64,000 bases of DNA. Origin: Bacilli bacterium (GTDB taxonomy: Bacteria; Bacillota_I; Bacilli_A; RFN20; CAG-826). Position 1 is the stretch's first letter; each line of letters starts with the position of its first letter. This document shows positions 15,188 to 64,000 of the stretch, in pieces. The position numbers and the translations under genes are program-made. The DNA is taken from contig JAFVCC010000114.1 of the NCBI GenBank assembly GCA_017479485.1, forward strand, positions 65,791-129,790. The letters are read 5' to 3'. The notes below the pieces were generated by a model, which was given only the letters and a program-made list of their open reading frames with translations, ran no database searches and was not told where the DNA came from.

Positions 15188-16254
15188 TCCTTGAGCGGCT
15201 TGTCCTGACCAACTTTCGGACCTACGAACGGCTCGACCTCGAATTCGGGGAGAAGGCCAATCTGATCCTTGGAAGCAATGCCAGTGGCAAGACCAACCTC
15301 GCCGAAGCTGTTTATTTCCTTTCCCTCGCACGTTCCTGGAGGACCCTAGAGGAAAAGAACCTGATCCGCTTCGGTTGCGATTCTGCTTCTATACGCGCCT
15401 ATGTGCGCGAGGGAAGCCTCCATCGCGAGATCCTGATTGAGCTGACGCCGCAGGGGAAACGGATCTTCCTCAACGGGAAGCCCATCCGCCGCCTCTCCGA
15501 GTTAAGCCGCCTCGTCAACGTCCTCCTCTTCTCTCCGGAAGACGTGAGACTATTCGAGGGGCCACCAGGTGAACGGCGCGCCTTCCTCGACGTGAGCTTA
15601 TCCAAGCGCTCCAACGACTACCTCGCCCTCATCGGCACTCAAGCGTCGCTGCTAAAATCCCGAAACGCTCTCCTCAAAGACGGCGGAAGGGACAAAGCGC
15701 TGCTGGAAGTCATTACGGAGCAACTCATCGAAGTGGAAGAGCCCATCGTGCGGTATCGGACGATGTACGTCACTTCCCTCAACGCCATCCTGCCATCGCT
15801 CCTTGCCCGTCTGCGCGGCGTAAAGGCCCGCTGTTGCCTCGTTTACCGAAGCTTCGTAAAAGACGACGGGTCCTTCAAAGAACACGCTAGGAAAGCCTAT
15901 GCGGAGTCTCTTGAGGGCGACCTCATCCACAAATCGACCTCCGTGGGAACCCATCGCGAGGACTTCCGCTTCAAACTCGAGGACCGCGACGTCGCCGAGT
16001 TTGGATCCCAAGGCGAGAACCGGATGGCCGCCTTGGCGCTAAAACTCTCCCCTTACTTCTTAATTGAAGAGGCGGAGAAAAAACCCATCTGCGTGCTCGA
16101 TGACGTCACGAGCGAACTTGACGTCGATAACGCGGGAAGATTGCTTGGCTATCTCAGCGAATTAGGCCAAAGCTTCCTTACCGCAACGGATTTATCACTT
16201 CAAGGCGCCTCGGTGTTCGAGGTCGCCAATCATAACGCCACAAGGAGGAATTAG
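15184..16254 (+). CDS. recF: DNA replication/repair protein RecF
   Basis: 356 aa. Walker [14 protein letters not shown] and an SMC-like signature near the C-terminus. Confidence 0.93.
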
Positions 16255-16256
16255 AG

Positions 16257-18302
16257 ATGGCAGAAGAAGAAAAAGTCACCTCGGGAAGCCCCACCCCTGA
16301 AGAGGATCGCTTCCAGTACAAAAAAGAAGATGTGACCAACGAGAAGGAGCTCGAGCGCGCCAAAGCCGATTATAGCGCCCAAGACCTCCAGGTTCTCGAA
16401 GGTCTCGAAGCTGTCCGTAAGCGTCCGGGCATGTACATTGCCACGACCGCCTCGGCCGGTTTGCACCACCTCGTATGGGAAATCGTCGACAACTCGATCG
16501 ACGAAGCCCTCGCGGGTTATTGCAAATCCATCACCGTCACGATCAATAAAGGCGAATCCATCACCGTTCAAGACGATGGCCGCGGCGTCCCTGTCGACAT
16601 CGTCGCCAAATCGGGACTCTCGGGCGTTGAAACCGTCTTCACCATCCTTCACGCCGGCGGTAAGTTCGGCGGCGAAGGCGGCTATAAAGTTTCCGGCGGT
16701 CTCCATGGCGTCGGCGCCTCTGTCGTTAACGCTCTTTCCACTTGGATGGACGTCACTGTCTGCCGCGATGGCGGGAAGTATTTCCTCCGCTTTGAAAACG
16801 GCGGCCACCCCGTCGGCCATTTGACCCGCATCGGCGATTCAGCCGAACACGGCACGACCGTCACCTTCCAACCCGACCCGACCATCTTCACCGAAACCAC
16901 CGTCTATCAGTACGACACCATTCGTAACCACCTCCGTCAGATGGCCTTCCTTAACGGCGGCATCTCGATCACCCTCATCGATGATCGCGGCGAGGCTCCG
17001 GTTACCGAAACCTTCAAGTACGATGGCGGTATCCGCGAATACGTCAAATACATCGACCAGGTCAAGCAACCGGTCAACCCCGAGCCGATCTACTGCCAAG
17101 GCGCCGAGGAAGTCACCCTCGCCGATGGCGAAACCAAGGTTCGCATCTATGCCGAAGTGGCCATCCAATGGACCGACTCCTATAGCCAAGATGGCGTCTA
17201 TTCCTTCTGCAACAACATCTCCACGAAGGAAGGCGGCACCCATAACGAAGGCTTGAACCTCGCTTTGGGCCGCGTCCTTAACGACTATGCTCGCAAGAAC
17301 AAGATGCTCAAAGAAGACGAGAAGAACTTCACCAAGGAAGACTGCCTTGAAGGTCTCACCGCCGTCATCTCCGTCAAGCACCCCAACCCGCAATATGAAG
17401 GCCAGACCAAAACCAAACTCGGCAACTCCGAAGTCCGCAAGATCGTCTCTTCTGTCGTCGGCGATGGCCTTGGCCAATTCTTGATGGAAAATCCTGCCGA
17501 AGCGCGCGCCATCATCGAAAAGATCCAACTCGCTTCCAAAGCCCGTGACGCTGCCCGCGTCGCCCGCGAGAAAATCCGTAAATCCGCATTAGAAATCACC
17601 ACCCTCCCTGGCAAGCTCGCCGACTGCTCGTCCAAAGATCCTGAAATCTGCGAGCTCTACATCGTTGAGGGTAACTCCGCAGGCGGCTCGGCCAAAAACG
17701 GCCGCGACCGTGAAACGCAGGCCATTTTGCCGCTTCGTGGCAAAATCCTTAACGTCGAGAAAGCCCGCGAAGACCGCATTTGGGCCAACGCCGAAATCGG
17801 CAACATGATCACCGCCATCGGTGCTGGCATCCGCGACAACTTCGACGTCACCAAGATCCGTTACCACAAGATCGTCATCATGACCGATGCTGATGTCGAC
17901 GGCGACCACATCCGCGTGTTGCTGCTGACCTTCTTCTATCGCTTTATGAGACCGCTTCTTGAAGGCGGATATGTCTACATCGCCCAACCTCCTTTATATA
18001 AGGTCGACTACAAGGGCAGCGCCTATTACGCCTATAACGACGCGCAACTCGAGAAGCTCCGCAAGGAACTCAACCTCAAGCCCGGCTTCGCCTTCCAACG
18101 CTACAAAGGCTTGGGCGAAATGGATGCCGAACAGCTCTGGGAAACCACCATGGATCCTAAGGCGAGGAAGATGATCCGCATCACCATCGAAGACGCCGCC
18201 GAAGCGGAGGCCGCCTTCTCCGAACTCATGGGCGACGAAGTTGCCCCGCGCCGCAGATACATCACCGAGAATGCGAAGTTCGTAAAGAACCTCGACATCT
18301 AA
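16257..18302 (+). CDS. gyrB: DNA gyrase subunit B
   Basis: 681 aa with GHKL ATPase, Toprim ([10 protein letters not shown]) and [12 protein letters not shown] motifs. Confidence 0.97.
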
Positions 18303-23473: not shown

Positions 23474-23479
23474 TCCCTT

Positions 23480-23560
23480 GCCATCGCGAGGAGCGGGTAG
23501 GGAACCAGGTCAGGACGGGAACGTAGCAGCCTTAACGTATCTTCCCCTGTGCTGTGGTTT
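23480..23560 (+). ncRNA. ffs: signal recognition particle RNA, small (4.5S-like) type
   Basis: Domain IV signature ACCAGGTCAGG-ACG-GGAA-CGT-AGCAGCC: a GGAA tetraloop closed by ACG/CGT and flanked by the conserved AGG / AGCA loops. The 5' GCCAU can pair with the 3' GUGGU, and a T-run terminator follows. Exact ends are approximate. Confidence 0.75.
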
Positions 23561-23583
23561 TCTTTTTATAGATAATAAGGATT

Positions 23584-51883: not shown

Positions 51884-52921
51884 ATGTTTACAATCAATGT
51901 TGATGATATTAACAGCATCCTTCAGGATTATGAAATAACAATCAAATGTGTCTCTTTCAGCGAATTACAAAGATATCATTACGAAAAAGATGATCCAACC
52001 TCTAAGGAGGTTCGACTGATTATCAAAGCTGAACTGGAAGATTCTCATTCGCTTGTTATTCGATTTAAGAATGAATCGGATGCACCTATTGAGACGATAG
52101 AAGCTCAGAGCCGGTTTGCAGCTTTATTGAAGGCACATGGTATTCAAACGCCGAATGCCTATGCTTCAAAAGGGTTTTATGCTCGCCAATACCAAATAAA
52201 CGAATACGATGTAGTGGTTACGGTTGAGGATTTCGTTTGCGGGGAAATTCATCTTGTTAATGCCGAAATAGCGGAAAAGACCGGTAAGCTGCTTGCCAGA
52301 ATGCATAATATAGCTGAGACCGAGGATTTTCATGTTCAATCTGAGGTGCTGTTTAATCCGCTGAAAAGCAATGATCTATTTGATTTTGAAGCGTTTGCTG
52401 CAAACAAAAATAAACTTATTGAAATTGATGAGGATTTATATTGCAAAATCTGTCAGGAACATGAGCTGCTCCTACAAAAAATAACCGCTTTTGAAAAAGA
52501 TCCGAGTTACGCTGTTCAAGGTGATTTAAGTGATTGCAACCTTTATATGACCCGAACCGGGGAGATCGGCGTATTTGACTTTAACCGCTGCGGGGATAAT
52601 AACCTGTATTTTGATGCAGTAATGCAGGCTCTTTATATAGCTCGGCTGATGGATTATCCGGAAAAAATAGCCGGTAATCAGGAGCAGATGATCTTGAGGG
52701 CGTTTCTGAAAGGCTATCATCAGGAGCGTCCGTTTACAGAGCGGCAAAAAGAAGTGTATCCATATCTGTATGCGATCATATCTGCCTTTTGGCTGGGCGA
52801 TATGAAATTCAACAACGATAGTTTGGAAAATGCGATCAAAGAAGATGATTTCTCTGCGATTCATCATTGGATGGAGACGATCTTGGAGCGAGCTCGCTTA
52901 CGTCAGCTTATGCCAATATAA
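51884..52921 (+). CDS. phosphotransferase-family (APH/CotS/choline-kinase fold) protein
   Basis: 345 aa with an AGGAGG RBS. Brenner-like motif QGDLSDCNLY (Gln replaces the usual His) and a DFN metal-binding motif (GVFDFNRCG). Confidence 0.75.
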   Translation: MFTINVDDINSILQDYEITIKCVSFSELQRYHYEKDDPTSKEVRLIIKAELEDSHSLVIRFKNESDAPIETIEAQSRFAALLKAHGIQTPNAYASKGFYARQYQINEYDVVVTVEDFVCGEIHLVNAEIAEKTGKLLARMHNIAETEDFHVQSEVLFNPLKSNDLFDFEAFAANKNKLIEIDEDLYCKICQEHELLLQKITAFEKDPSYAVQGDLSDCNLYMTRTGEIGVFDFNRCGDNNLYFDAVMQALYIARLMDYPEKIAGNQEQMILRAFLKGYHQERPFTERQKEVYPYLYAIISAFWLGDMKFNNDSLENAIKEDDFSAIHHWMETILERARLRQLMPI

Positions 52922-53434: not shown

Positions 53435-53728
53435 TTACGAAATTGGCTTCTCACCAAAAATGTGGCCGCAACTTTTACACCTGCTAGCTATCCACCAAAT
53501 AATTCGTCCGTTTTGATCTGGCGCATCATATTTCCAGTTCGAAAGATAATCGCTATGGCAGTTTGGACATCTTTCGGTACAACCACCACCAGAAGTAGCT
53601 TCTAATTGCTCATCGGTGAGTTCAACACCTTCTTGTTTAGCAAGAGCGAGCATTTCTTCTTGATTCTTGCACGCCTTGACCTTGGCGATTTGCTCTTCAG
53701 TCAAGCCCTTAAGCAATTCTTCTCTCAT
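53435..53728 (-). CDS. Nif11-like double-glycine leader + zinc-ribbon core peptide, paralog P1 (97 aa)
   Basis: Leader MREELLKGLTEEQIAKVKACKNQEEMLALAKQEGVELTDEQLEATSGGG. Core CTERCPNC-x26-CKSCGHIFGEKPIS. ATG at 53728 with a GGGGGAA RBS. Confidence 0.8.
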   Translation of the reverse strand: MREELLKGLTEEQIAKVKACKNQEEMLALAKQEGVELTDEQLEATSGGGCTERCPNCHSDYLSNWKYDAPDQNGRIIWWIASRCKSCGHIFGEKPIS

Positions 53729-53956: not shown

Positions 53957-54256
53957 ATGAAAGAAGAATTACTTAAAGGCTTAAGCGAAGAACAAGTCGC
54001 CAAGGTTAAAGCATGTAAGAATCAAGAAGAGATACTTAAAGTTGCTAAAGAAGAAGGTCTTGAACTCACTGACGAACAATTAGAAGCCGTTTCTGGTGGC
54101 TGCACGGATAGAGAAGGTCTTATCTGCCCACACTGTGGTAAAAGTGATTACTATCAACGTCTATGGGGTAGCACATATGACACTTATGTTTGTAAAGGCT
54201 GTCATGAATGCTTTTATTACATTAAAGAAACAGGTCAAACAGCGAAACATTGTTAA
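53957..54256 (+). CDS. Nif11-like double-glycine leader + zinc-ribbon core peptide, paralog P2 (99 aa)
   Basis: Leader MKEELLKGLSEEQVAKVKACKNQEEILKVAKEEGLELTDEQLEAVSGG. Core CTDREGLICPHC-x18-CKGCHEC...HC. An extended -10 TGATATAAT lies upstream. Confidence 0.8.
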   Translation: MKEELLKGLSEEQVAKVKACKNQEEILKVAKEEGLELTDEQLEAVSGGCTDREGLICPHCGKSDYYQRLWGSTYDTYVCKGCHECFYYIKETGQTAKHC

Positions 54257-59276: not shown

Positions 59277-59310
59277 AAGGCCTCCCGGGGATTCCTAGGA
59301 GGCCTTCTTT
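59277..59310 (+). terminator. rho-independent terminator after the surface protein gene
   Basis: AAGGCCTCC ... GGAGGCCTT stem followed by CTTT. Confidence 0.65.
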
Positions 59311-59323
59311 GAAGGATCAAGTG

Positions 59324-59917
59324 ATGCCGAACGTACCGAGGAAAGTGGTGCAGTGCGATAAGGAAGGAAACGACCTACGCACCTTTAACTCCGCCAAGGA
59401 GGCGGCGCTTTCGCTTGGCTTTGCTACGCCTAATGCCATCAACAAGGCCGCGAGACACGGCCACTGCGCCTTCGGCTATCGTTGGAGATACGCCGACATG
59501 CCCCTTTACATCAAGCCTGAGGGAACGCCCGGGAAGAGTAGGGCGATCGTGGCCATCGGGGGAAATGGCGCCGAGGAGACGTTCCTAAGCATATCCGAGG
59601 CCTCTAGGAAGCTTGGCATCGGGATTACTGCCATCGAGAGCGCGCTCCTGATGGGCTGTAAGGCCAAGGGATACCATTTCCGTTACGAGGGTGAGGCGCT
59701 AGCTAAGTCTTATAAGCACGAGAGACACGGGAGGAAGGTCGTCGCCATCGATGATGATGGCAGGATCGTCGCTGAATACCCATGTGCGATGGAATGCGCG
59801 AGGTCACTAGGCGTGATCAAGGCCGCTATATACCGCTGTCTTAGGGAAAAGGACTCCAAGGCGAAATGCAAAGGTCATAGGCTTAGATATAAGGACGAAT
59901 ACATAACTGAAGAATGA
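59324..59917 (+). CDS. protein of three tandem NUMOD1/IENR1-like DNA-binding modules, no nuclease domain
   Basis: Three ~55-aa repeats of the pattern (R/K)xVVxxDxxGxxxxxFxSxxEAxxxLGxxxxxIxxxxxxx...G(Y/H)x(W/F/L)RY. AAGGA RBS. Start at the ATG at 59324 (the GTG at 59321 is possible). Confidence 0.7.
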   Translation: MPNVPRKVVQCDKEGNDLRTFNSAKEAALSLGFATPNAINKAARHGHCAFGYRWRYADMPLYIKPEGTPGKSRAIVAIGGNGAEETFLSISEASRKLGIGITAIESALLMGCKAKGYHFRYEGEALAKSYKHERHGRKVVAIDDDGRIVAEYPCAMECARSLGVIKAAIYRCLREKDSKAKCKGHRLRYKDEYITEE

Positions 59918-59971: not shown

Positions 59972-62215
59972 TTATTTCTCTTTCTTCTTTAACTCGGAAT
60001 AATAGTTTTCGATTTTGCTTCTGGCTCGGACATAATACTTTTCTAGGCCCGGATCGAACTGTTTCCCCATGTTGGAAATAATGATGTTGTTGGCGTCCTC
60101 AAAGGAGAATTCGTCTTTGTATACCCTTTTGCTCACCAGGGCATCATAAACGTCTGCGATCGCCATAATGCGTGCCTCTAGGGGTATTTCGTCGCCTTTG
60201 AGGCCGTTAGGATAGCCTTTGCCATCCCACCTTTCGTGGTGATAATGGGCAATGTTGACCGCAATTTCTTCAAAGCCCTTATCGACGACGTCTTCTAAGA
60301 TCTGTCTGACGATGAGAGAACCCTCTTTGGAATGGGTTTTCATAATGGCGTATTCTTCGGGGGTGAATTTGCCCGGTTTCCGTAGTATCGCGTCATCGAT
60401 CGTTATTTTGCCTAGATCGTGCATCGGAGCGCTTTTGATGATGCTTTGAGAAAAGGAGGAGCTGATGTTCAAGAATGGATCGTCCATCATTTCTTGAACC
60501 AAGAACTTGACGACGTCGCTCGTTCTTTTGATGTGACCGCCCGTGGATTTGTCTCTTCCTTCGACCATCGTGGCCATGCCATAAAACAACTTATCCTGAA
60601 CCTTGATTTCTCGGTTCTTGACCGTTGAGAACACAAAGAAGAAAACAAATTGCGTCCCGATGATTAATAAAGAACTAAAGATGAGGGCAAAGCTGATTTC
60701 GCCGATGTTGACCTCGCTACTCTCGGTCGCGGTTTTGAACACCCAGGAAGTGATGCCAAAAACGATCAGGATGAATAAGCCGAACAGGGCAATCATGGAA
60801 TTGCCGAACATCCTCTTTTTGTCTTTTTTGACCAAAAAGCCGTAATATCCAAAGCCGATCGCCGCCCAAATAATGAAGATGAAGATGGATTCTTTTGCCA
60901 GATAATCGGCATTAATGAAGCTGCTGGCCATGACGGAAATGGCAAAGGCCGCGCCAACCACCAAACCCGCTACGCTCGAGATAAGGCCTTCTAGGTTGTT
61001 GTCCTTTTTGGCCTGGGTAAAACTAATCGCGGAGATATAGGTATAAACAATGATGCCGCAGAAGGTATTCACATCGACGATCCAACCGATTAATACCCTG
61101 CCGAAAAATAGCATCAACGCCGTCACGACAAGAATGAAGATGATGACGTTTCGCGGGGCCTCGTTTTGATCCAATTTGGCAAAGCCCTTAAAGAAAACGC
61201 GATCTTCGGACATCGTTTGGATTAGGTTGGATAAGGCGACGATATTGCCGATCAAGCTCGTCATGATGATGGCGCTTAAGGCGACGACGAACATCACTAG
61301 TCCCCACGTGCCTAAATAGTGGTGCATGACGTAGAAAGCGGGGATGCCGTCTAAGCCGCTTAGCGAGGACGAAGAAGTCAGGTATTCATACCAGTTGGCG
61401 TAATCGCTGGGGAAAACGCTGATGGACAGCATGCAAATCAAAATATAGATCACCGCGGTGACGACAACGGAAGCGACCAGCACCTTAAAGACGTTTTTGT
61501 GCCTGAATTTGAAGTTTTTGGAAGAGTGGGAGATGTTTTCAAACCCAATAAATGCCCAGGGCATCATGCCGATAACCCCAACGACCTGAGAGAACTCGTT
61601 GCTTCCGTTACTGGCGAAGTCTGGCTTATAGGACTCGATGCCGCCCTTATGCATGACCGCGGCGACAATAAAGCCGGCCACAATCAAAGATATGAATATT
61701 AAGACCAAGCCCGACTGGATCCCCGTCGTGATTTTCCTTTTCAGCAGGCAAATGCCACCAAAGAGCAACAAGAAAAACAGCGATAATAGGATTTCACCTA
61801 ACCAAACATCGTATCCGCCGAGCACATAGTGGAACCCGAATTGGAACGTGGAGCCGAATACGTACCGCGCAAATAAAGCGAAAGAAGATACGTTTGCCCA
61901 CAAAATCGCGGCATAGGTGATGATTAAAAACCACGCCACCAAGAAGGCATGGTCACCTCCCAATGTGTTTTTGGCGTAAGTGTAAATACCCCCATTGCTG
62001 TCCGGATATTTGTTGATCATATAGTGGTAGTTATAAGCGACCACCAACATGATCAAAGTGCCGACAATAATGCCGATAACGCTGCCTAGAGGGCCTGCCT
62101 TGCTTAAAAAAGAGCTGCCCGTAACGACGAACGAGCCCCATCCGATCGCCGTGCCGATGGATAGGGAGAACGCCCCCAAAGCGGATATGGATTTATTGGA
62201 CTTCGTATGACTCAT
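59972..62215 (-). CDS. APC-family amino-acid permease fused to a C-terminal HD-GYP domain
   Basis: The N-terminal ~470 aa form a 12-TM APC-type permease, followed by extra TMs and then an HD-GYP domain (HDLGKI..., HHERWDGKGYP, IADVYDAL). The ATG at 62215 forms an ATGA overlap with the upstream gene. The TTG at 62233 in the track is less likely. Confidence 0.85.
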   Translation of the reverse strand: MSHTKSNKSISALGAFSLSIGTAIGWGSFVVTGSSFLSKAGPLGSVIGIIVGTLIMLVVAYNYHYMINKYPDSNGGIYTYAKNTLGGDHAFLVAWFLIITYAAILWANVSSFALFARYVFGSTFQFGFHYVLGGYDVWLGEILLSLFFLLLFGGICLLKRKITTGIQSGLVLIFISLIVAGFIVAAVMHKGGIESYKPDFASNGSNEFSQVVGVIGMMPWAFIGFENISHSSKNFKFRHKNVFKVLVASVVVTAVIYILICMLSISVFPSDYANWYEYLTSSSSLSGLDGIPAFYVMHHYLGTWGLVMFVVALSAIIMTSLIGNIVALSNLIQTMSEDRVFFKGFAKLDQNEAPRNVIIFILVVTALMLFFGRVLIGWIVDVNTFCGIIVYTYISAISFTQAKKDNNLEGLISSVAGLVVGAAFAISVMASSFINADYLAKESIFIFIIWAAIGFGYYGFLVKKDKKRMFGNSMIALFGLFILIVFGITSWVFKTATESSEVNIGEISFALIFSSLLIIGTQFVFFFVFSTVKNREIKVQDKLFYGMATMVEGRDKSTGGHIKRTSDVVKFLVQEMMDDPFLNISSSFSQSIIKSAPMHDLGKITIDDAILRKPGKFTPEEYAIMKTHSKEGSLIVRQILEDVVDKGFEEIAVNIAHYHHERWDGKGYPNGLKGDEIPLEARIMAIADVYDALVSKRVYKDEFSFEDANNIIISNMGKQFDPGLEKYYVRARSKIENYYSELKKKEK

Positions 62216-63087
62216 TTTCTTTTGGGAAGGCAAGCCAAAATGTCCTCTTTGGGGATGCTGACGAAGATGTGGACCAATTCTTCGTCGAAGTCTTTGTTGA
62301 CCCCGTCTTGAATTGCGGCGATCGCCGCATCGTAGTCCATATCCTTGATCAGTTTGGAATAGGCGTCGCAGATGGCGAGCATTTTGCTCGGCAAGGGGAT
62401 GGAATCGCCCTTTTTAAAGTAGTAGCCGGTGCCATCGACCTTTTCGTGATGATATAAAAGCCAATCGCTGATGTAATCAAACGACTTGACGCCCCTTAAT
62501 AAACGAACGGTCACTTGGGGGTGGGCCCGCACAATCTCCTCTTCTTCGGGGGTTAACTCACCTGCTTTATCCACGATTTCCTGAGGAATGCTGGATCTGC
62601 CCACATCATGAAGCAGCGCGGCGTATTCTATGCTGACCAAGCTATATTCGCCTTGGATTTGCCTTGGGAGATATTTATAGAACACGTCCATTAGGTTTTT
62701 GACGTGCAAAACGTGGCCTTCGATATGCTGACCGCGCGTATCGATGATGTCCGCCAAAACCTCAGTGATTTCTAACGACCTTTCTTTGGACGTTTGTAGC
62801 AACCGAGTCAACAAAACGATGACCACGGAAACAAACAAGCTGCCGAAGAACAAGATTAAGCTGGTGATCAAGTGCGGGTCGGCGTATATGCTGACGAAGA
62901 TGTATCCGCCCAAGAAGAAGACCAATAAGACGAGACCAAAGCTCACCATGACGTTGTCCCTTCTAACGCCGCCAGAAATAACGTCCCTCATCCGCAGCAT
63001 GAAGCGAATGTAAAAGCCGATGTTCACTGCCATGAGCAAGGCGCCAACGATAATGAGCGTAACAATCACGACATTTAAGGGCTCCAT
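62212..63087 (-). CDS. membrane-anchored HD-GYP domain protein (GYP motif reads GYY)
   Basis: 291 aa from the ATG at 63087 (MEPLNVV...). Two TM helices, then LLHDVGRS, HHEKVDGTGYY and ICDAYSKL. The 126-codon upstream extension in the track is rejected. Confidence 0.8.
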   Translation of the reverse strand: MEPLNVVIVTLIIVGALLMAVNIGFYIRFMLRMRDVISGGVRRDNVMVSFGLVLLVFFLGGYIFVSIYADPHLITSLILFFGSLFVSVVIVLLTRLLQTSKERSLEITEVLADIIDTRGQHIEGHVLHVKNLMDVFYKYLPRQIQGEYSLVSIEYAALLHDVGRSSIPQEIVDKAGELTPEEEEIVRAHPQVTVRLLRGVKSFDYISDWLLYHHEKVDGTGYYFKKGDSIPLPSKMLAICDAYSKLIKDMDYDAAIAAIQDGVNKDFDEELVHIFVSIPKEDILACLPKRK

Positions 63088-63313
63088 GCCTACAACTATA
63101 TAACGAATTTTGAAAATAGTTGCTATTTTTAAAATTTTAAGAGTGTCAACTAAACAGGCGAAAAGGGCTAAATTCCCATCACCCGTTTTGTAAATACTCC
63201 GATTTCTTTTTGAATTTGGGACGGGGCATTGATAACGTTTCTCGATTAACTGGATTAATAAATGAATTCCTGAGCCTATTTGGTACAATGAAGAAAACAG
63301 GAGTTCACTAAAA

Positions 63314-63610
63314 ATGAAAGAAGAACTATTTAAAGCCCTAACCGAAGAGCAGATGGCCAAATTAAAAGACTGCAAAAATGTCGAAGAATTGCTCGCTCTT
63401 GCCAAACAAGAAGGCGTTGAACTCACTGATGACCAACTCGAAGCCGTCAACGGCGGCTGCGGCACTACTACGGGGTATTGGGGATGCCCTTACTGCGGTT
63501 ATCGTTGGGGCGCCATGAGTTTAGGACATGGCCGCGCTAGATGCTTTGGCTGTGGCGGTGAGTTTAACGATCACGAAGCAAAATATTATCCAATCAATAA
63601 GGATAAATAA
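63314..63610 (+). CDS. Nif11-like double-glycine leader + zinc-ribbon core peptide, paralog P3 (98 aa)
   Basis: Leader MKEELFKALTEEQMAKLKDCKNVEELLALAKQEGVELTDDQLEAVNGG. Core CGTTTGYWGCPYC-x15-CFGCGGEF.... An extended -10 TGGTACAAT lies upstream. Confidence 0.8.
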   Translation: MKEELFKALTEEQMAKLKDCKNVEELLALAKQEGVELTDDQLEAVNGGCGTTTGYWGCPYCGYRWGAMSLGHGRARCFGCGGEFNDHEAKYYPINKDK

Positions 63611-63679
63611 TTCGTCAAAGAGATATCTATAAGCGATAGGTATGTTTGCTAAATGATAACGATCGGAGTGAACAATTAT

Positions 63680-63946
63680 ATGAGAGATGAATTATTAAAA
63701 GGCCTAAGCGAAGAGCAAATAAAGAAATTAAAGGAATGCAAAACACAAGAAGAAATCATAAGCCTCGCGAAAGAGGAAGGTGTTGAATTAACGGATGAAC
63801 AATTAGCGTCTATCTCTGGCGGAGGATGCAGAGGTGGCAGATGCCCTAGATGCGGCAGTGACTATACCTGCTGCTACGCTATTGGCAAATATGAATGTAG
63901 TAAATGCCAATATCACTGGGGAGAGGATGAATACATCCCAAATTAA
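63680..63946 (+). CDS. Nif11-like double-glycine leader + zinc-ribbon core peptide, paralog P4 (88 aa)
   Basis: Leader MRDELLKGLSEEQIKKLKECKTQEEIISLAKEEGVELTDEQLASISGGG. Core CRGGRCPRC-x14-CSKCQYHW.... Start at the ATG at 63680. Confidence 0.8.
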   Translation: MRDELLKGLSEEQIKKLKECKTQEEIISLAKEEGVELTDEQLASISGGGCRGGRCPRCGSDYTCCYAIGKYECSKCQYHWGEDEYIPN

Positions 63947-64000
63947 TTTCTATTAGCAAAAACTCTTAACAGATTTAGCTGATAAAAAAATAATAAAACC

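What the first reader, a model, noticed from the sequence alone, without database searches (positions are those of the whole stretch)
63088..63946. Second locus of the leader/zinc-ribbon peptide family (tandem P3/P4), divergent from an HD-GYP operon and cut by the window end
Seen in sequence:
- P3 and P4 lie head-to-tail, 69 nt apart. P3 has its own extended -10 promoter (TGGTACAAT).
- They share a 226-nt divergent intergenic region (63088-63313) with the membrane HD-GYP / permease-HD-GYP operon.
- That intergenic region contains a 7-bp perfect palindrome, AAAATAG-TTG-CTATTTT.
- The two loci are about 9 kb apart and sit in different contexts. Both peptide loci are visibly more AT-rich than the housekeeping part of the window.

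Inference:
- The multi-locus, multi-paralog layout suggests one shared processing machinery encoded elsewhere. It may lie just beyond nt 64000, since the window ends 54 nt after P4.
- A functional link to the neighbouring c-di-GMP phosphodiesterase-type sensors is conceivable, but it rests on adjacency at one locus only.
Basis: partly seen in the sequence, partly recalled or inferred. Interest (0 to 1): 0.7.

Follow-up and report, generated by a model that had tools for sequence, protein, structure and literature searches.

The report
Stray precursor genes for secreted cysteine-rich peptides
Two small tandem genes at the window's end are real members of a very large, so far unnamed family of rumen-bacterial peptide precursors (a conserved cleavable leader plus a variable zinc-ribbon-like tail) whose modifying enzyme and exporter sit at a separate locus in related genomes.

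Summary
In detail: P3 (63314-63610) and P4 (63680-63946) are tandem genes 69 nt apart, divergent from an HD-GYP operon. They are paralogues of P1 and P2.

Each has a 48-residue Nif11-like leader ending ELTDxQLEAVxGG. After it come a Cys within 0-2 residues and a ~47-residue core with two zinc knuckles (CPxCG...CxxCG).

The family is large: at least 4002 clusters at 90% identity and 3116 at 50%. It lies almost entirely in ruminant-gut Bacilli/Erysipelotrichaceae MAGs.

Extending the contig 10 kb past the window shows no processing genes. It shows a third locus with three more paralogues.

In related genomes, 7 loci put such peptides next to a cassette that is conserved in order. It comprises a radical-SAM/SPASM enzyme (464-466 aa, at least 75% identical), a 130-aa membrane protein, a C39-peptidase ABC exporter and a second ABC protein. 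Another genome carries the cassette with no peptide gene within 10 kb.

So "shared machinery elsewhere" is supported and "just beyond nt 64000" is not. The HD-GYP link is not conserved. The leader and exporter are of a known kind (Haft 2010). The core class and the enzyme are uncharacterised. This is a new variant of a known kind.

The parts
63314..63610 (+). P3, a 98-aa precursor. It has a 48-aa Nif11-like leader ending EAVNGG, and its core starts with Cys49. The knuckles are CPYCG (58-62) and CFGCG (77-81).
   Evidence: Pfam Nif11 scores 21.2 bits against a threshold of 23.8, and TIGR01847 scores 16.1 against 15.7. In the AlphaFold model residues 38-51 are below pLDDT 50, and the core is beta-stranded at pLDDT 72-83. 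Copies 71-90% identical exist in other genomes and metagenomes.
63680..63946 (+). P4, an 88-aa precursor. The leader ends ASISGG. The core is GCRGGRCPRCGSDYTCCYAIGKYECSKCQYHWGEDEYIPN.
   Evidence: Pfam Nif11 scores 23.9 bits against 23.8. The AlphaFold core is beta-stranded at pLDDT 68-76. L009 holds a copy with 3 amino-acid differences, dN 0.014 and dS 0.18.
63281..63289 (+). Extended -10 promoter element TGGTACAAT in front of P3, with no recognisable -35.
   Evidence: The pattern is enriched about threefold across the family (both forms), and the strict form sits at a fixed distance from the ATG. P2 and P5 share it.
63611..63679 (+). P3-P4 spacer. It holds no terminator-like site and is about 90% identical in three genomes of 36-50% GC.
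   Evidence: It has no Rfam match and no significant fold, z = -0.45.
63106..63136 (.). Imperfect 31-nt inverted repeat AATTTTGAAAATAG-TTG-CTATTTTTAAAATT, next to the HD-GYP start codon.
   Evidence: 13 of 14 positions paired; 0.2% of shuffles reach this. It is unique in the window. Its function is unknown.
62212..63087 (-). Membrane protein of 291 aa with an HD_5 (HD-GYP-type) domain. Its signature reads HHEKVDGTGYY, that is GYY in place of GYP.
   Evidence: Pfam PF13487 scores 84.1 bits. Sequence.
59972..62233 (-). Fusion of an amino-acid permease with a canonical HD-GYP domain (HHERWDGKGYP). It overlaps the stop of the upstream HD-GYP gene, which indicates an operon.
   Evidence: Pfam AA_permease_2 scores 114.8 bits and HD_5 scores 96.1 bits. 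The gene is called as 747 aa on the public contig.
53435..53728 (-). P1, a paralogue at locus 1.
   Evidence: A core 95% identical in nucleotides sits in another genome behind a leader only 73% identical.
53957..54256 (+). P2, a paralogue at locus 1.
   Evidence: In RUG266 a P2-like core sits in the same array as a P3-like core.

Best explanation
P3 and P4 are stand-alone ("orphan") precursor genes of a large paralogous family of exported peptides.

Each product has three parts:
- a 48-residue helical leader of the Nif11-like type, which ends in a double-glycine cleavage motif;
- a nearly invariant Cys within two residues after that motif;
- a variable core of about 47 residues that looks like a four-cysteine zinc ribbon.

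Proposed sequence of events:
1. P3 is transcribed from its own extended -10 promoter. P4 is probably co-transcribed with it.
2. The leader is recognised by a dedicated radical-SAM/SPASM enzyme. That enzyme has about 90 extra N-terminal residues that by eye resemble a peptide-recognition domain.
3. The leader is then recognised by a C39-peptidase ABC exporter, which works with a second ABC protein and a short membrane protein.
4. The exporter cuts after Gly-Gly and secretes the mature peptide.

The enzyme and exporter are encoded once, at a locus that need not be near the precursors.

Shown by the data: the gene structures, the family and its conserved features, the promoter pattern, and the linkage of peptides to the cassette in related genomes.

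Inferred: that this genome carries the cassette, that P3 and P4 are its substrates, the chemistry (my best guess is a thioether or other cross-link involving the conserved Cys after Gly-Gly), zinc binding by the core, and the biological role (bacteriocin-like or signalling).
For: Leader:
- It ends ELTD[DE]QLEAV[NS]GG, with hydrophobic residues at -4, -7 and -12. Compare ELSDEELEAVAGG, given for Nif11-derived peptides in PMC2887384.
- Pfam Nif11 matches 68 of 124 family members at E <= 1e-3.

Core, over 277 distinct peptides from 80 loci:
- 252 of 267 have at least two CxxC motifs, and 225 have CPxC.
- The first Cys falls 0-2 residues after Gly-Gly in 257 of 267.
- The median core length is 47 residues.

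Structure and domain matches:
- AlphaFold gives helical leaders, a low-confidence linker at the Gly-Gly site, and beta-stranded cores at pLDDT 68-83.
- Several Pfam zinc-ribbon models hit members below threshold.

Cassette:
- L006 has 19 peptide genes around a radical-SAM/SPASM gene, a 130-aa gene, a C39-ABC gene and an ABC2 gene.
- The same cassette occurs in 6 of 77 genome loci.
- The exporters score 819.5 bits on TIGR03796 and 655 bits on TIGR03797.
- The enzyme carries CNLNCLHC and a CxxCx5Cx3C SPASM motif. It is at least 75% identical across more than 120 clusters.
- Its nearest solved relatives are the peptide maturases SkfB, SuiB and PqqE.
- In L086 the cassette has no peptide gene within 10 kb.

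Selection:
- Core dN/dS is 0.07-0.34.
Against: - No cassette lies in the 64-kb window or in the 10 kb beyond it. About 150 kb of the 226-kb scaffold and the rest of the genome were not visible, so its presence in this organism is unproven.
- All leader matches to curated models are at or below threshold: TIGR03798 scores 14-22 bits against 32.3.
- The enzyme reaches no curated maturase family, so its reaction is unknown.
- A folded zinc ribbon is an unusual substrate for a radical-SAM maturase.
- Structure searches gave no significant match, all E > 1.
- There are no expression data.
Confidence: 0.72

Rival explanations
1. The peptides are unmodified secreted mini-proteins, like class II bacteriocins. 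The exporter only cuts off the leader and secretes a core that folds around zinc, or forms disulfides. The radical-SAM enzyme acts on something else, or on only a subset such as the relatives with short acidic cores.
For: - The cores carry textbook zinc knuckles (CPxCG...CxxCG followed by an aromatic residue) and are predicted to fold on their own.
- TIGR01847 (double-glycine bacteriocin signal) scores 16.1 bits against 15.7 for P3.
- Relatives exist with the same leader and the same Cys but short acidic cores.
Against: - The radical-SAM gene sits inside or directly next to arrays of zinc-ribbon-type peptides in all 7 such loci.
- It is as conserved as the exporter.
- A fifth Cys, not needed for a four-cysteine site, is conserved in 96% of cores.
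Confidence: 0.15
2. The peptides are signals tied to the neighbouring HD-GYP proteins. The secreted peptide would be sensed by, or co-regulated with, the membrane c-di-GMP phosphodiesterases through the shared divergent control region.
For: - The arrangement in the window is divergent, with a non-random 31-nt inverted repeat in the spacer.
- HD-GYP paralogues lie within 10 kb of peptide genes in 6 of 77 loci. One is RUG266, where a P3-like peptide is in the array.
Against: - Those HD-GYP genes have different architectures, distances and orientations.
- The closest copy of the P3-P4 pair (L009) has no HD-GYP neighbour.
- The repeat abuts the HD-GYP start, not the P3 promoter, and occurs nowhere else.
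- There is no c-di-GMP riboswitch or other Rfam match in the region.
- Peptide loci are very numerous per genome, so chance adjacency is expected.
Confidence: 0.06
3. They are small intracellular zinc-ribbon proteins with an N-terminal Nif11 domain, neither cleaved nor exported.
For: - Some sources name relatives "Nif11 family protein" or "transposase-like protein".
- The zinc-ribbon Pfam hits are to intracellular domains.
Against: - The Gly-Gly motif with the canonical hydrophobic spacing is close to universal: found in 267 of 277 distinct peptides.
- The cores are hypervariable behind a conserved leader.
- The genes are physically linked to a C39-peptidase exporter in several genomes.
Confidence: 0.04

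Closest known systems
Nif11-derived precursor peptides (N11P, TIGR03798 / PF07862) with the NHLP-type export system TIGR03794/03796/03797 (Haft, Basu and Mitchell 2010, PMC2887384)
   Same: - A long helical leader ending in an ELxDEQLEAVxGG-type double-glycine motif.
- A hypervariable Cys-rich core.
- Large paralogous families scattered over the genome.
- In related genomes, an exporter pair that scores close to the TIGR03796 and TIGR03797 cut-offs.
   Different: - The leader is shorter: 48 residues against about 69.
- It scores below the TIGR03798 cut-off.
- It carries a conserved Cys (position 20; invariant in the 124-member alignment, a Cys in that stretch in 263 of 277).
- The cores are about twice as long and share a fixed five-cysteine, zinc-ribbon-like scaffold.
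- The HlyD-like partner is reduced to about 130 residues.
- The partner enzyme is a radical-SAM/SPASM protein, not a LanM or a cyclodehydratase.
- The hosts are rumen Bacilli/Erysipelotrichaceae, not cyanobacteria.
Thioether peptides made by radical-SAM/SPASM enzymes: sactipeptides (subtilosin, SkfA/SkfB, ruminococcin C) and ranthipeptides (SCIFF/CteB, PapA/PapB). The family descriptions are from my own knowledge.
   Same: - A Cys-rich core.
- A SPASM-type maturase with an extra N-terminal region.
- Gut and rumen Firmicutes as hosts.
- SkfB is the nearest solved relative of the enzyme.
   Different: - The enzyme falls far below every curated maturase cut-off: StsB 78 bits against 625, PapB 64 against 340.
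- The leader type is different.
- The cysteines sit in metal-knuckle contexts (CPxCG), not in the usual donor patterns.
- No cross-link has been shown.
Class II double-glycine-leader bacteriocins exported by peptidase-containing ABC transporters
   Same: - The Gly-Gly cleavage motif, with hydrophobic residues at -4, -7 and -12.
- A C39-ABC exporter in related genomes.
- Tandem small genes.
   Different: - The leader is two to three times longer and is Nif11-like.
- No immunity gene was recognised.
- The core is a zinc-ribbon-like domain, not an amphipathic helix.
- A radical-SAM gene is linked.

Membership tests
N11P / Nif11-like leader peptide family (TIGR03798, PF07862) | Score at or above the curated cut-off of the family model | tested here: inconclusive
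   - PF07862: P4 scores 23.9 bits and P3 scores 21.2, against a threshold of 23.8.
- TIGR03798: 13.8-21.8 bits against 32.3.
- 68 of 124 family members hit PF07862 at E <= 1e-3.
N11P / Nif11-like leader peptide family | The conserved leader ends in a Gly-Gly cleavage motif of the ELSDEELEAVAGG type, followed by a hypervariable core | tested here: met
   - P3 reads ELTDDQLEAVNGG and P4 reads ELTDEQLASISGG.
- Column identity drops sharply after Gly-Gly.
- The reference motif is in PMC2887384.
N11P / Nif11-like leader peptide family | Association with the three-gene export cluster TIGR03794/03796/03797 | tested here: inconclusive
   - Related genomes: TIGR03796 scores 819.5 bits against 853.3, and TIGR03797 scores 655 against 709.4. 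Only the first 50 residues of the HlyD-like model match.
- The cluster lies next to peptides in 7 loci.
- It was not found in the window or in the next 10 kb.
Sactipeptide / ranthipeptide (radical-SAM thioether peptides) | A radical-SAM/SPASM maturase of a known family encoded with the precursor | tested here: not met
   - A radical-SAM/SPASM gene is linked only in related genomes.
- It scores far below the StsB, PapB, ScmE, DynA and WgkB cut-offs.
Sactipeptide / ranthipeptide | Cysteine-to-carbon thioether cross-links in the mature peptide | not testable with these tools
   This needs mass spectrometry or NMR of the peptide co-expressed with the enzyme.
Zinc ribbon fold | Two CxxC knuckles on beta-hairpins that bind one zinc ion | tested here: inconclusive
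   - Both knuckles are present in P3, in P4 and in 252 of 267 relatives.
- Pfam zinc-ribbon models hit members below their thresholds.
- The AlphaFold cores are beta-stranded at pLDDT 68-83.
- The Foldseek top hits include several zinc-ribbon-bearing proteins, but all have E > 1.
- Metal binding is untestable here.
Class II double-glycine bacteriocin | Match to the double-glycine signal model TIGR01847, and a linked immunity gene | tested here: inconclusive
   - P3 scores 16.1 bits against 15.7, and P4 scores 15.3.
- No candidate immunity gene was recognised next to P3 and P4.
HD-GYP phosphodiesterase (the neighbouring genes) | An HD_5 domain with the HD and HHExxDGxGYP signatures | tested here: met
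   - PF13487 scores 96.1 and 84.1 bits against 27.2.
- The permease fusion has HHERWDGKGYP. The small protein has the variant HHEKVDGTGYY.

The most novel reading that the evidence does not exclude
These would be a new class of ribosomal natural product. A folded, metal-binding zinc-ribbon mini-domain is the variable payload. A dedicated radical-SAM enzyme modifies the conserved Cys just after the cleavage site. Diversity arises because core cassettes are swapped behind a constant leader, within and between rumen genomes.
Probability: 0.3. Interest if true: 0.75.

Novelty: new variant of a known kind. Interest (0 to 1): 0.55.

Why it matters
If the reading is right, rumen Bacilli/Erysipelotrichaceae carry thousands of different secreted peptides built on one scaffold and served by one highly conserved enzyme and exporter.

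- **A genome-mining target.** It offers an uncharacterised radical-SAM reaction and a natural library of substrates.
- **A possible factor in rumen ecology.** The products could act in competition or signalling within a community of agricultural importance.
- **A practical lesson for annotation.** Most precursor genes of this family lie far from the biosynthetic genes. Gene callers and cluster finders that depend on adjacency will miss them or label them "hypothetical", "Nif11 family" or even "transposase-like".

Tried and rejected
- **Machinery in the window or extension.** tblastn with the related radical-SAM, 130-aa, C39-ABC and ABC2 proteins found only a generic ABC ATPase at 24.4-25.0 kb. 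Pfam on ten large window genes showed housekeeping genes such as gyrB, gyrA, yidC and metG.
- **Walking further along the 226-kb scaffold.** Not possible. None of P5-P7 is an exact member of the returned protein sets.
- **The 7-bp palindrome as a signal.** On its own it is not beyond chance, 24% of shuffles. The longer repeat is non-random but has no second copy.
- **Riboswitch or other RNA in 63000-64000.** Nothing credible was found. The conserved P3-P4 spacer has no significant fold.
- **Fold comparison of the P3 model with solved structures.** No significant match.
- **The conserved ~397-aa protein next to the enzyme.** No Pfam, NCBIfam or PDB sequence match.
- **The two ~105-aa genes after P5 and P6.** No family match. 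They are not generally linked to peptides.
- **Literature.** Six full-text searches combining Nif11, zinc ribbon, radical SAM, SPASM, rumen and Erysipelotrich* found no description of this family.
- **Lipoprotein reading of \"GG-C\".** Rejected, because the leader is hydrophilic and helical, not a signal peptide.

Full report
**What is in the sequence**

P3 is 63314-63610 (98 aa) and follows AGGAG at 63299-63303. P4 is 63680-63946 (88 aa) and follows GGAG at 63665-63668. They are 69 nt apart, and the window ends 54 nt after P4.

On the opposite strand, a 291-aa membrane protein with an HD_5 domain ends its coding region at the ATG at 63087. This leaves a 226-nt divergent spacer. Its stop overlaps the start of a permease/HD-GYP fusion, so the two form an operon. 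The fusion has the canonical HHERWDGKGYP signature. The small protein has GYY in place of GYP.

GC content is 39% at this locus and 38% at locus 1, against 50% for the whole window.

**Promoter and palindrome**

TGGTACAAT lies at 63281-63289 with no usable -35 element. This is not an isolated match:
- TGnTAnnnT is found in the 120 nt upstream of 162 of 275 family genes, against 56 +/- 7 in shuffles.
- The strict form TGnTAnAAT occurs 26 times against 8.6 in shuffles. In 25 of those 26 it ends 22-31 nt before the start codon.
- P2 and P5 carry the same ATTTGnTAnAATGA.

The 7-bp palindrome is present at 63113-63129, but 24% of shuffles of the spacer contain one. It is the centre of a longer repeat at 63106-63136 with 13 of 14 positions paired, and only 0.2% of shuffles reach that. 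This repeat abuts the HD-GYP start codon, is about 150 nt from the P3 promoter, and has no second copy in the window or the extension. If it has a role, that role concerns the HD-GYP operon.

**Anatomy of the peptides**

P1-P4 and three further paralogues align over a 48-residue leader, with consensus MKEELLKGL[ST]EEQIAK.K.CKN.EE.LALAKEEG[VI]ELTDEQLEAVSGG. The leader ends in Gly-Gly, with hydrophobic residues at -4, -7 and -12.

After Gly-Gly only five cysteines are conserved. One lies within two residues of Gly-Gly. The other four form a CPxC(G) knuckle and a CxxC(G) knuckle, the second followed by an aromatic residue.

I extracted 277 distinct peptides from 80 loci:
- 252 of 267 have at least two CxxC motifs, and 225 have CPxC.
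- The first Cys lies 0-2 residues after Gly-Gly in 257 of 267.
- A leader Cys is present in 263 of 277.
- The median core length is 47 residues, with 5 or 6 cysteines.

AlphaFold models of P3 and P4 give a helical leader at low confidence, a low-confidence (below pLDDT 50) stretch around Gly-Gly, and a beta-stranded core at pLDDT 68-83. Comparison with solved structures gave nothing significant, all E > 1. The top hits include several zinc-ribbon-bearing proteins, such as RPA70 and Cas12f.

Pfam Nif11 matches P4 at 23.9 bits and P3 at 21.2, against a threshold of 23.8. It matches 68 of 124 relatives at E <= 1e-3. A scatter of zinc-ribbon models hits the cores below threshold.

**Beyond the window**

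A public metagenome scaffold (ENA ERZ28656003, scaffold_61, 226 kb) carries the identical P3 and the same gene order, and it extends 10 kb further. It shows, in order:
- a 759-aa LRR_5 protein with a lipoprotein-like N-terminal signal;
- a match to group II intron domains (42 bits against a gathering score of 40);
- a third peptide locus with P5 and P6, then two unknown ~105-aa genes, then P7 on the other strand;
- an HTH membrane protein, a DUF6273 protein and an acetyltransferase.

There is no peptidase-ABC exporter and no radical-SAM gene there or anywhere in the window.

**Size and distribution of the family**

A profile of the seven paralogues finds at least 4002 clusters at 90% identity, and the candidate list was saturated. 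A full scan of representatives at 50% identity finds 3116 at E <= 1e-3 and 503 at E <= 1e-10. Where a source gives a name, it is "hypothetical protein", "Nif11 family protein" or "transposase-like protein".

In the species-representative genome collection, the 77 loci kept come from 32 MAGs by my count of the record titles. Isolate names where informative point to ruminant gut. They are labelled Erysipelotrichaceae, Bacilli or Bacillales, apart from three labelled Lachnospiraceae or Pseudobutyrivibrio and one short contig labelled Saccharibacteria (L009). Several genomes contribute 4-7 separate loci, with arrays of up to 15 genes.

**The machinery**

One metagenome contig, L006, has 19 such peptide genes around four other genes:
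- a 465-aa radical-SAM/SPASM gene with CNLNCLHC, a CxxCx5Cx3C motif, and about 90 extra N-terminal residues that I read as a peptide-recognition domain; Pfam finds nothing there;
- a 130-aa membrane protein that matches only the start of the NHLP HlyD-like model;
- a C39-peptidase ABC transporter scoring 819.5 bits on TIGR03796 (cut-off 853.3);
- a second ABC protein scoring 655 bits on TIGR03797 (cut-off 709.4).

The same four genes, in the same order, lie next to peptide genes in six of the 77 genome loci. Genomes that hold such a locus also hold peptide loci without it: RGIG9687 and RUG14810. In another genome the cassette has no peptide gene within 10 kb on either side.

The enzyme is at least 75% identical across more than 120 clusters at 90% identity and is always 464-466 aa. 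Its nearest solved relatives are SkfB, SuiB and PqqE. It reaches no curated maturase family.

The transport genes and the leader motif are those described for nitrile-hydratase-type and Nif11-type precursors by Haft and colleagues (PMC2887384).

**How I think it works**

The evidence fits one enzyme and one exporter serving many dispersed precursors, as detailed under Best explanation. The linkage is shown only in relatives.

I could not see whether this organism has the cassette. About 150 kb of the scaffold and the rest of the genome are out of reach, and the look-up tool would not accept the genes at the end of the extension.

The chemistry is unknown. The Cys after Gly-Gly is kept even in relatives that lack the zinc ribbon and have short acidic cores. 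This makes it my preferred candidate for the modification site. The rival view is that the cores are simply exported zinc-binding mini-proteins. It remains open.

**The HD-GYP neighbours**

HD-GYP paralogues lie within 10 kb of a peptide gene in 6 of 77 loci (1.02 Mb in total). Their architectures and distances differ, they lie on the same strand as the peptide genes, and none is divergent.

Two related loci bear on the link:
- L009 holds the closest copy of the P3-P4 pair: P3 at 77% identity and P4 with three substitutions. It sits behind a 925-aa protein, and no HD-GYP gene lies on that short contig.
- In RUG266, P3-like, P7-like and P2-like cores lie in one array, followed by homologues of the two ~105-aa genes and, 2.9 kb further on, a membrane HD-GYP gene. 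So some shared local ancestry is likely.

With so many peptide loci per genome, this does not amount to a functional link.

**Evolution, seen in passing**

Matching cores in different genomes are often nearly identical in nucleotides (93-99%). Their leaders, meanwhile, are only as similar (72-80%) as random leader pairs (73-75%). Core identity exceeds leader identity in 333 of 427 such pairs, including pairs that involve P1 and P2.

Selecting pairs by core similarity biases the average. It cannot explain the extreme cases. These point to recombination at the leader-core boundary.

The 69-nt spacer before P4 is about 90% identical in three genomes of 36-50% GC. It has no Rfam match and no significant fold.

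**Verdict**

The system is a new variant of a known kind:
- The leader and exporter belong to the known double-glycine Nif11/NHLP type.
- The five-cysteine zinc-ribbon-like core class, the tightly conserved radical-SAM partner and the very large expansion in rumen Bacilli are undescribed in the six full-text searches I ran.

Noticed in passing
L001 15057-16637 (about 4.7-6.3 kb beyond the window end): A third locus of the same family: P5 (15057-15344, +), P6 (15354-15635, +) and P7 (16359-16637, -). Two unknown paralogous ~105-aa genes lie between them (15694-16011 and 16021-16344). The same two genes follow a peptide array in RUG266 (L060) and lie next to an HD-GYP gene in RUG12224 (L040).
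   Followed up: partly
L001 13614-13691: A match to group II intron domains (Rfam RF00029, 42 bits against a gathering score of 40). It sits in a 1.2-kb stretch without convincing genes, between the LRR gene and the third peptide locus. It suggests mobile-element activity in this AT-rich region.
   Followed up: no
window 59309-59917 (+): A 202-aa protein with NUMOD1 and I-HmuI NUMOD-like DNA-binding modules, as found in homing endonucleases. No nuclease domain was detected. It lies between a 1054-aa protein with no Pfam match and the HD-GYP operon.
   Followed up: no
window 63611-63679; L009 3607-3669; L060 611-685: The spacer before P4, together with the first codons of P4, is about 90% identical in three genomes of 50%, 47% and 36% GC. 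Yet synonymous sites of the P3-type leader just upstream are near saturation between these genomes (dS 1.0-1.5). In L060 the gene behind this spacer has a different, P7-like core. There is no Rfam match and no significant RNA fold.
   Followed up: partly
peptide genes in L001, L009, L013, L022, L038, L055, L060 and others: Mosaic evolution. Cores 93-99% identical in nucleotides sit behind leaders only 72-80% identical, which is the background level for unrelated leader pairs. In the L009/L060 P3-like pair, 2 of 147 core positions differ against 30 of 144 leader positions. This suggests recombination at the leader-core junction.
   Followed up: partly
L006 15758-17620; L013, L021, L059; L086 2169-9856: The enzyme/exporter cassette is regularly flanked by a partner-switching set: STAS proteins, SpoIIE phosphatase fused to an HATPase_c_2 kinase, and a STAS-APH fusion. 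This may be a regulatory input. The window has an APH-family gene (51884-52921) beside locus 1, but it is not a detectable homologue of these.
   Followed up: partly
L021 775-1977; L013 8371-9636; L012, L020, L059, L070, L080: A conserved protein of about 397 aa lies just upstream of the radical-SAM gene in 5 of 7 cassette loci and beside peptides in two other loci. It has no Pfam, NCBIfam or PDB sequence match.
   Followed up: partly
proteins P0345, P0354, P0374, P0376: These relatives have the same leader and the same Cys after Gly-Gly, but short acidic cores (for example GGGCSSDDDNKDKDKKDGGHPKILD) and no zinc knuckles. Other leader-only hits look like frameshifted copies.
   Followed up: no
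L009 (contig CAMVEA010000052.1): The closest genome copy of the P3-P4 pair is on a 4.9-kb contig of a MAG labelled Candidatus Saccharibacteria. All the other genome loci are from MAGs labelled as Firmicutes groups (Bacilli, Erysipelotrichaceae, Bacillales, Lachnospiraceae), so this is probably a binning error.
   Followed up: no
window 23478-23563 (+): Bacterial small SRP RNA (Rfam RF00169, 47.4 bits). It is ordinary. The window also holds yidC, gyrB and gyrA, so it may lie near the replication origin.
   Followed up: no
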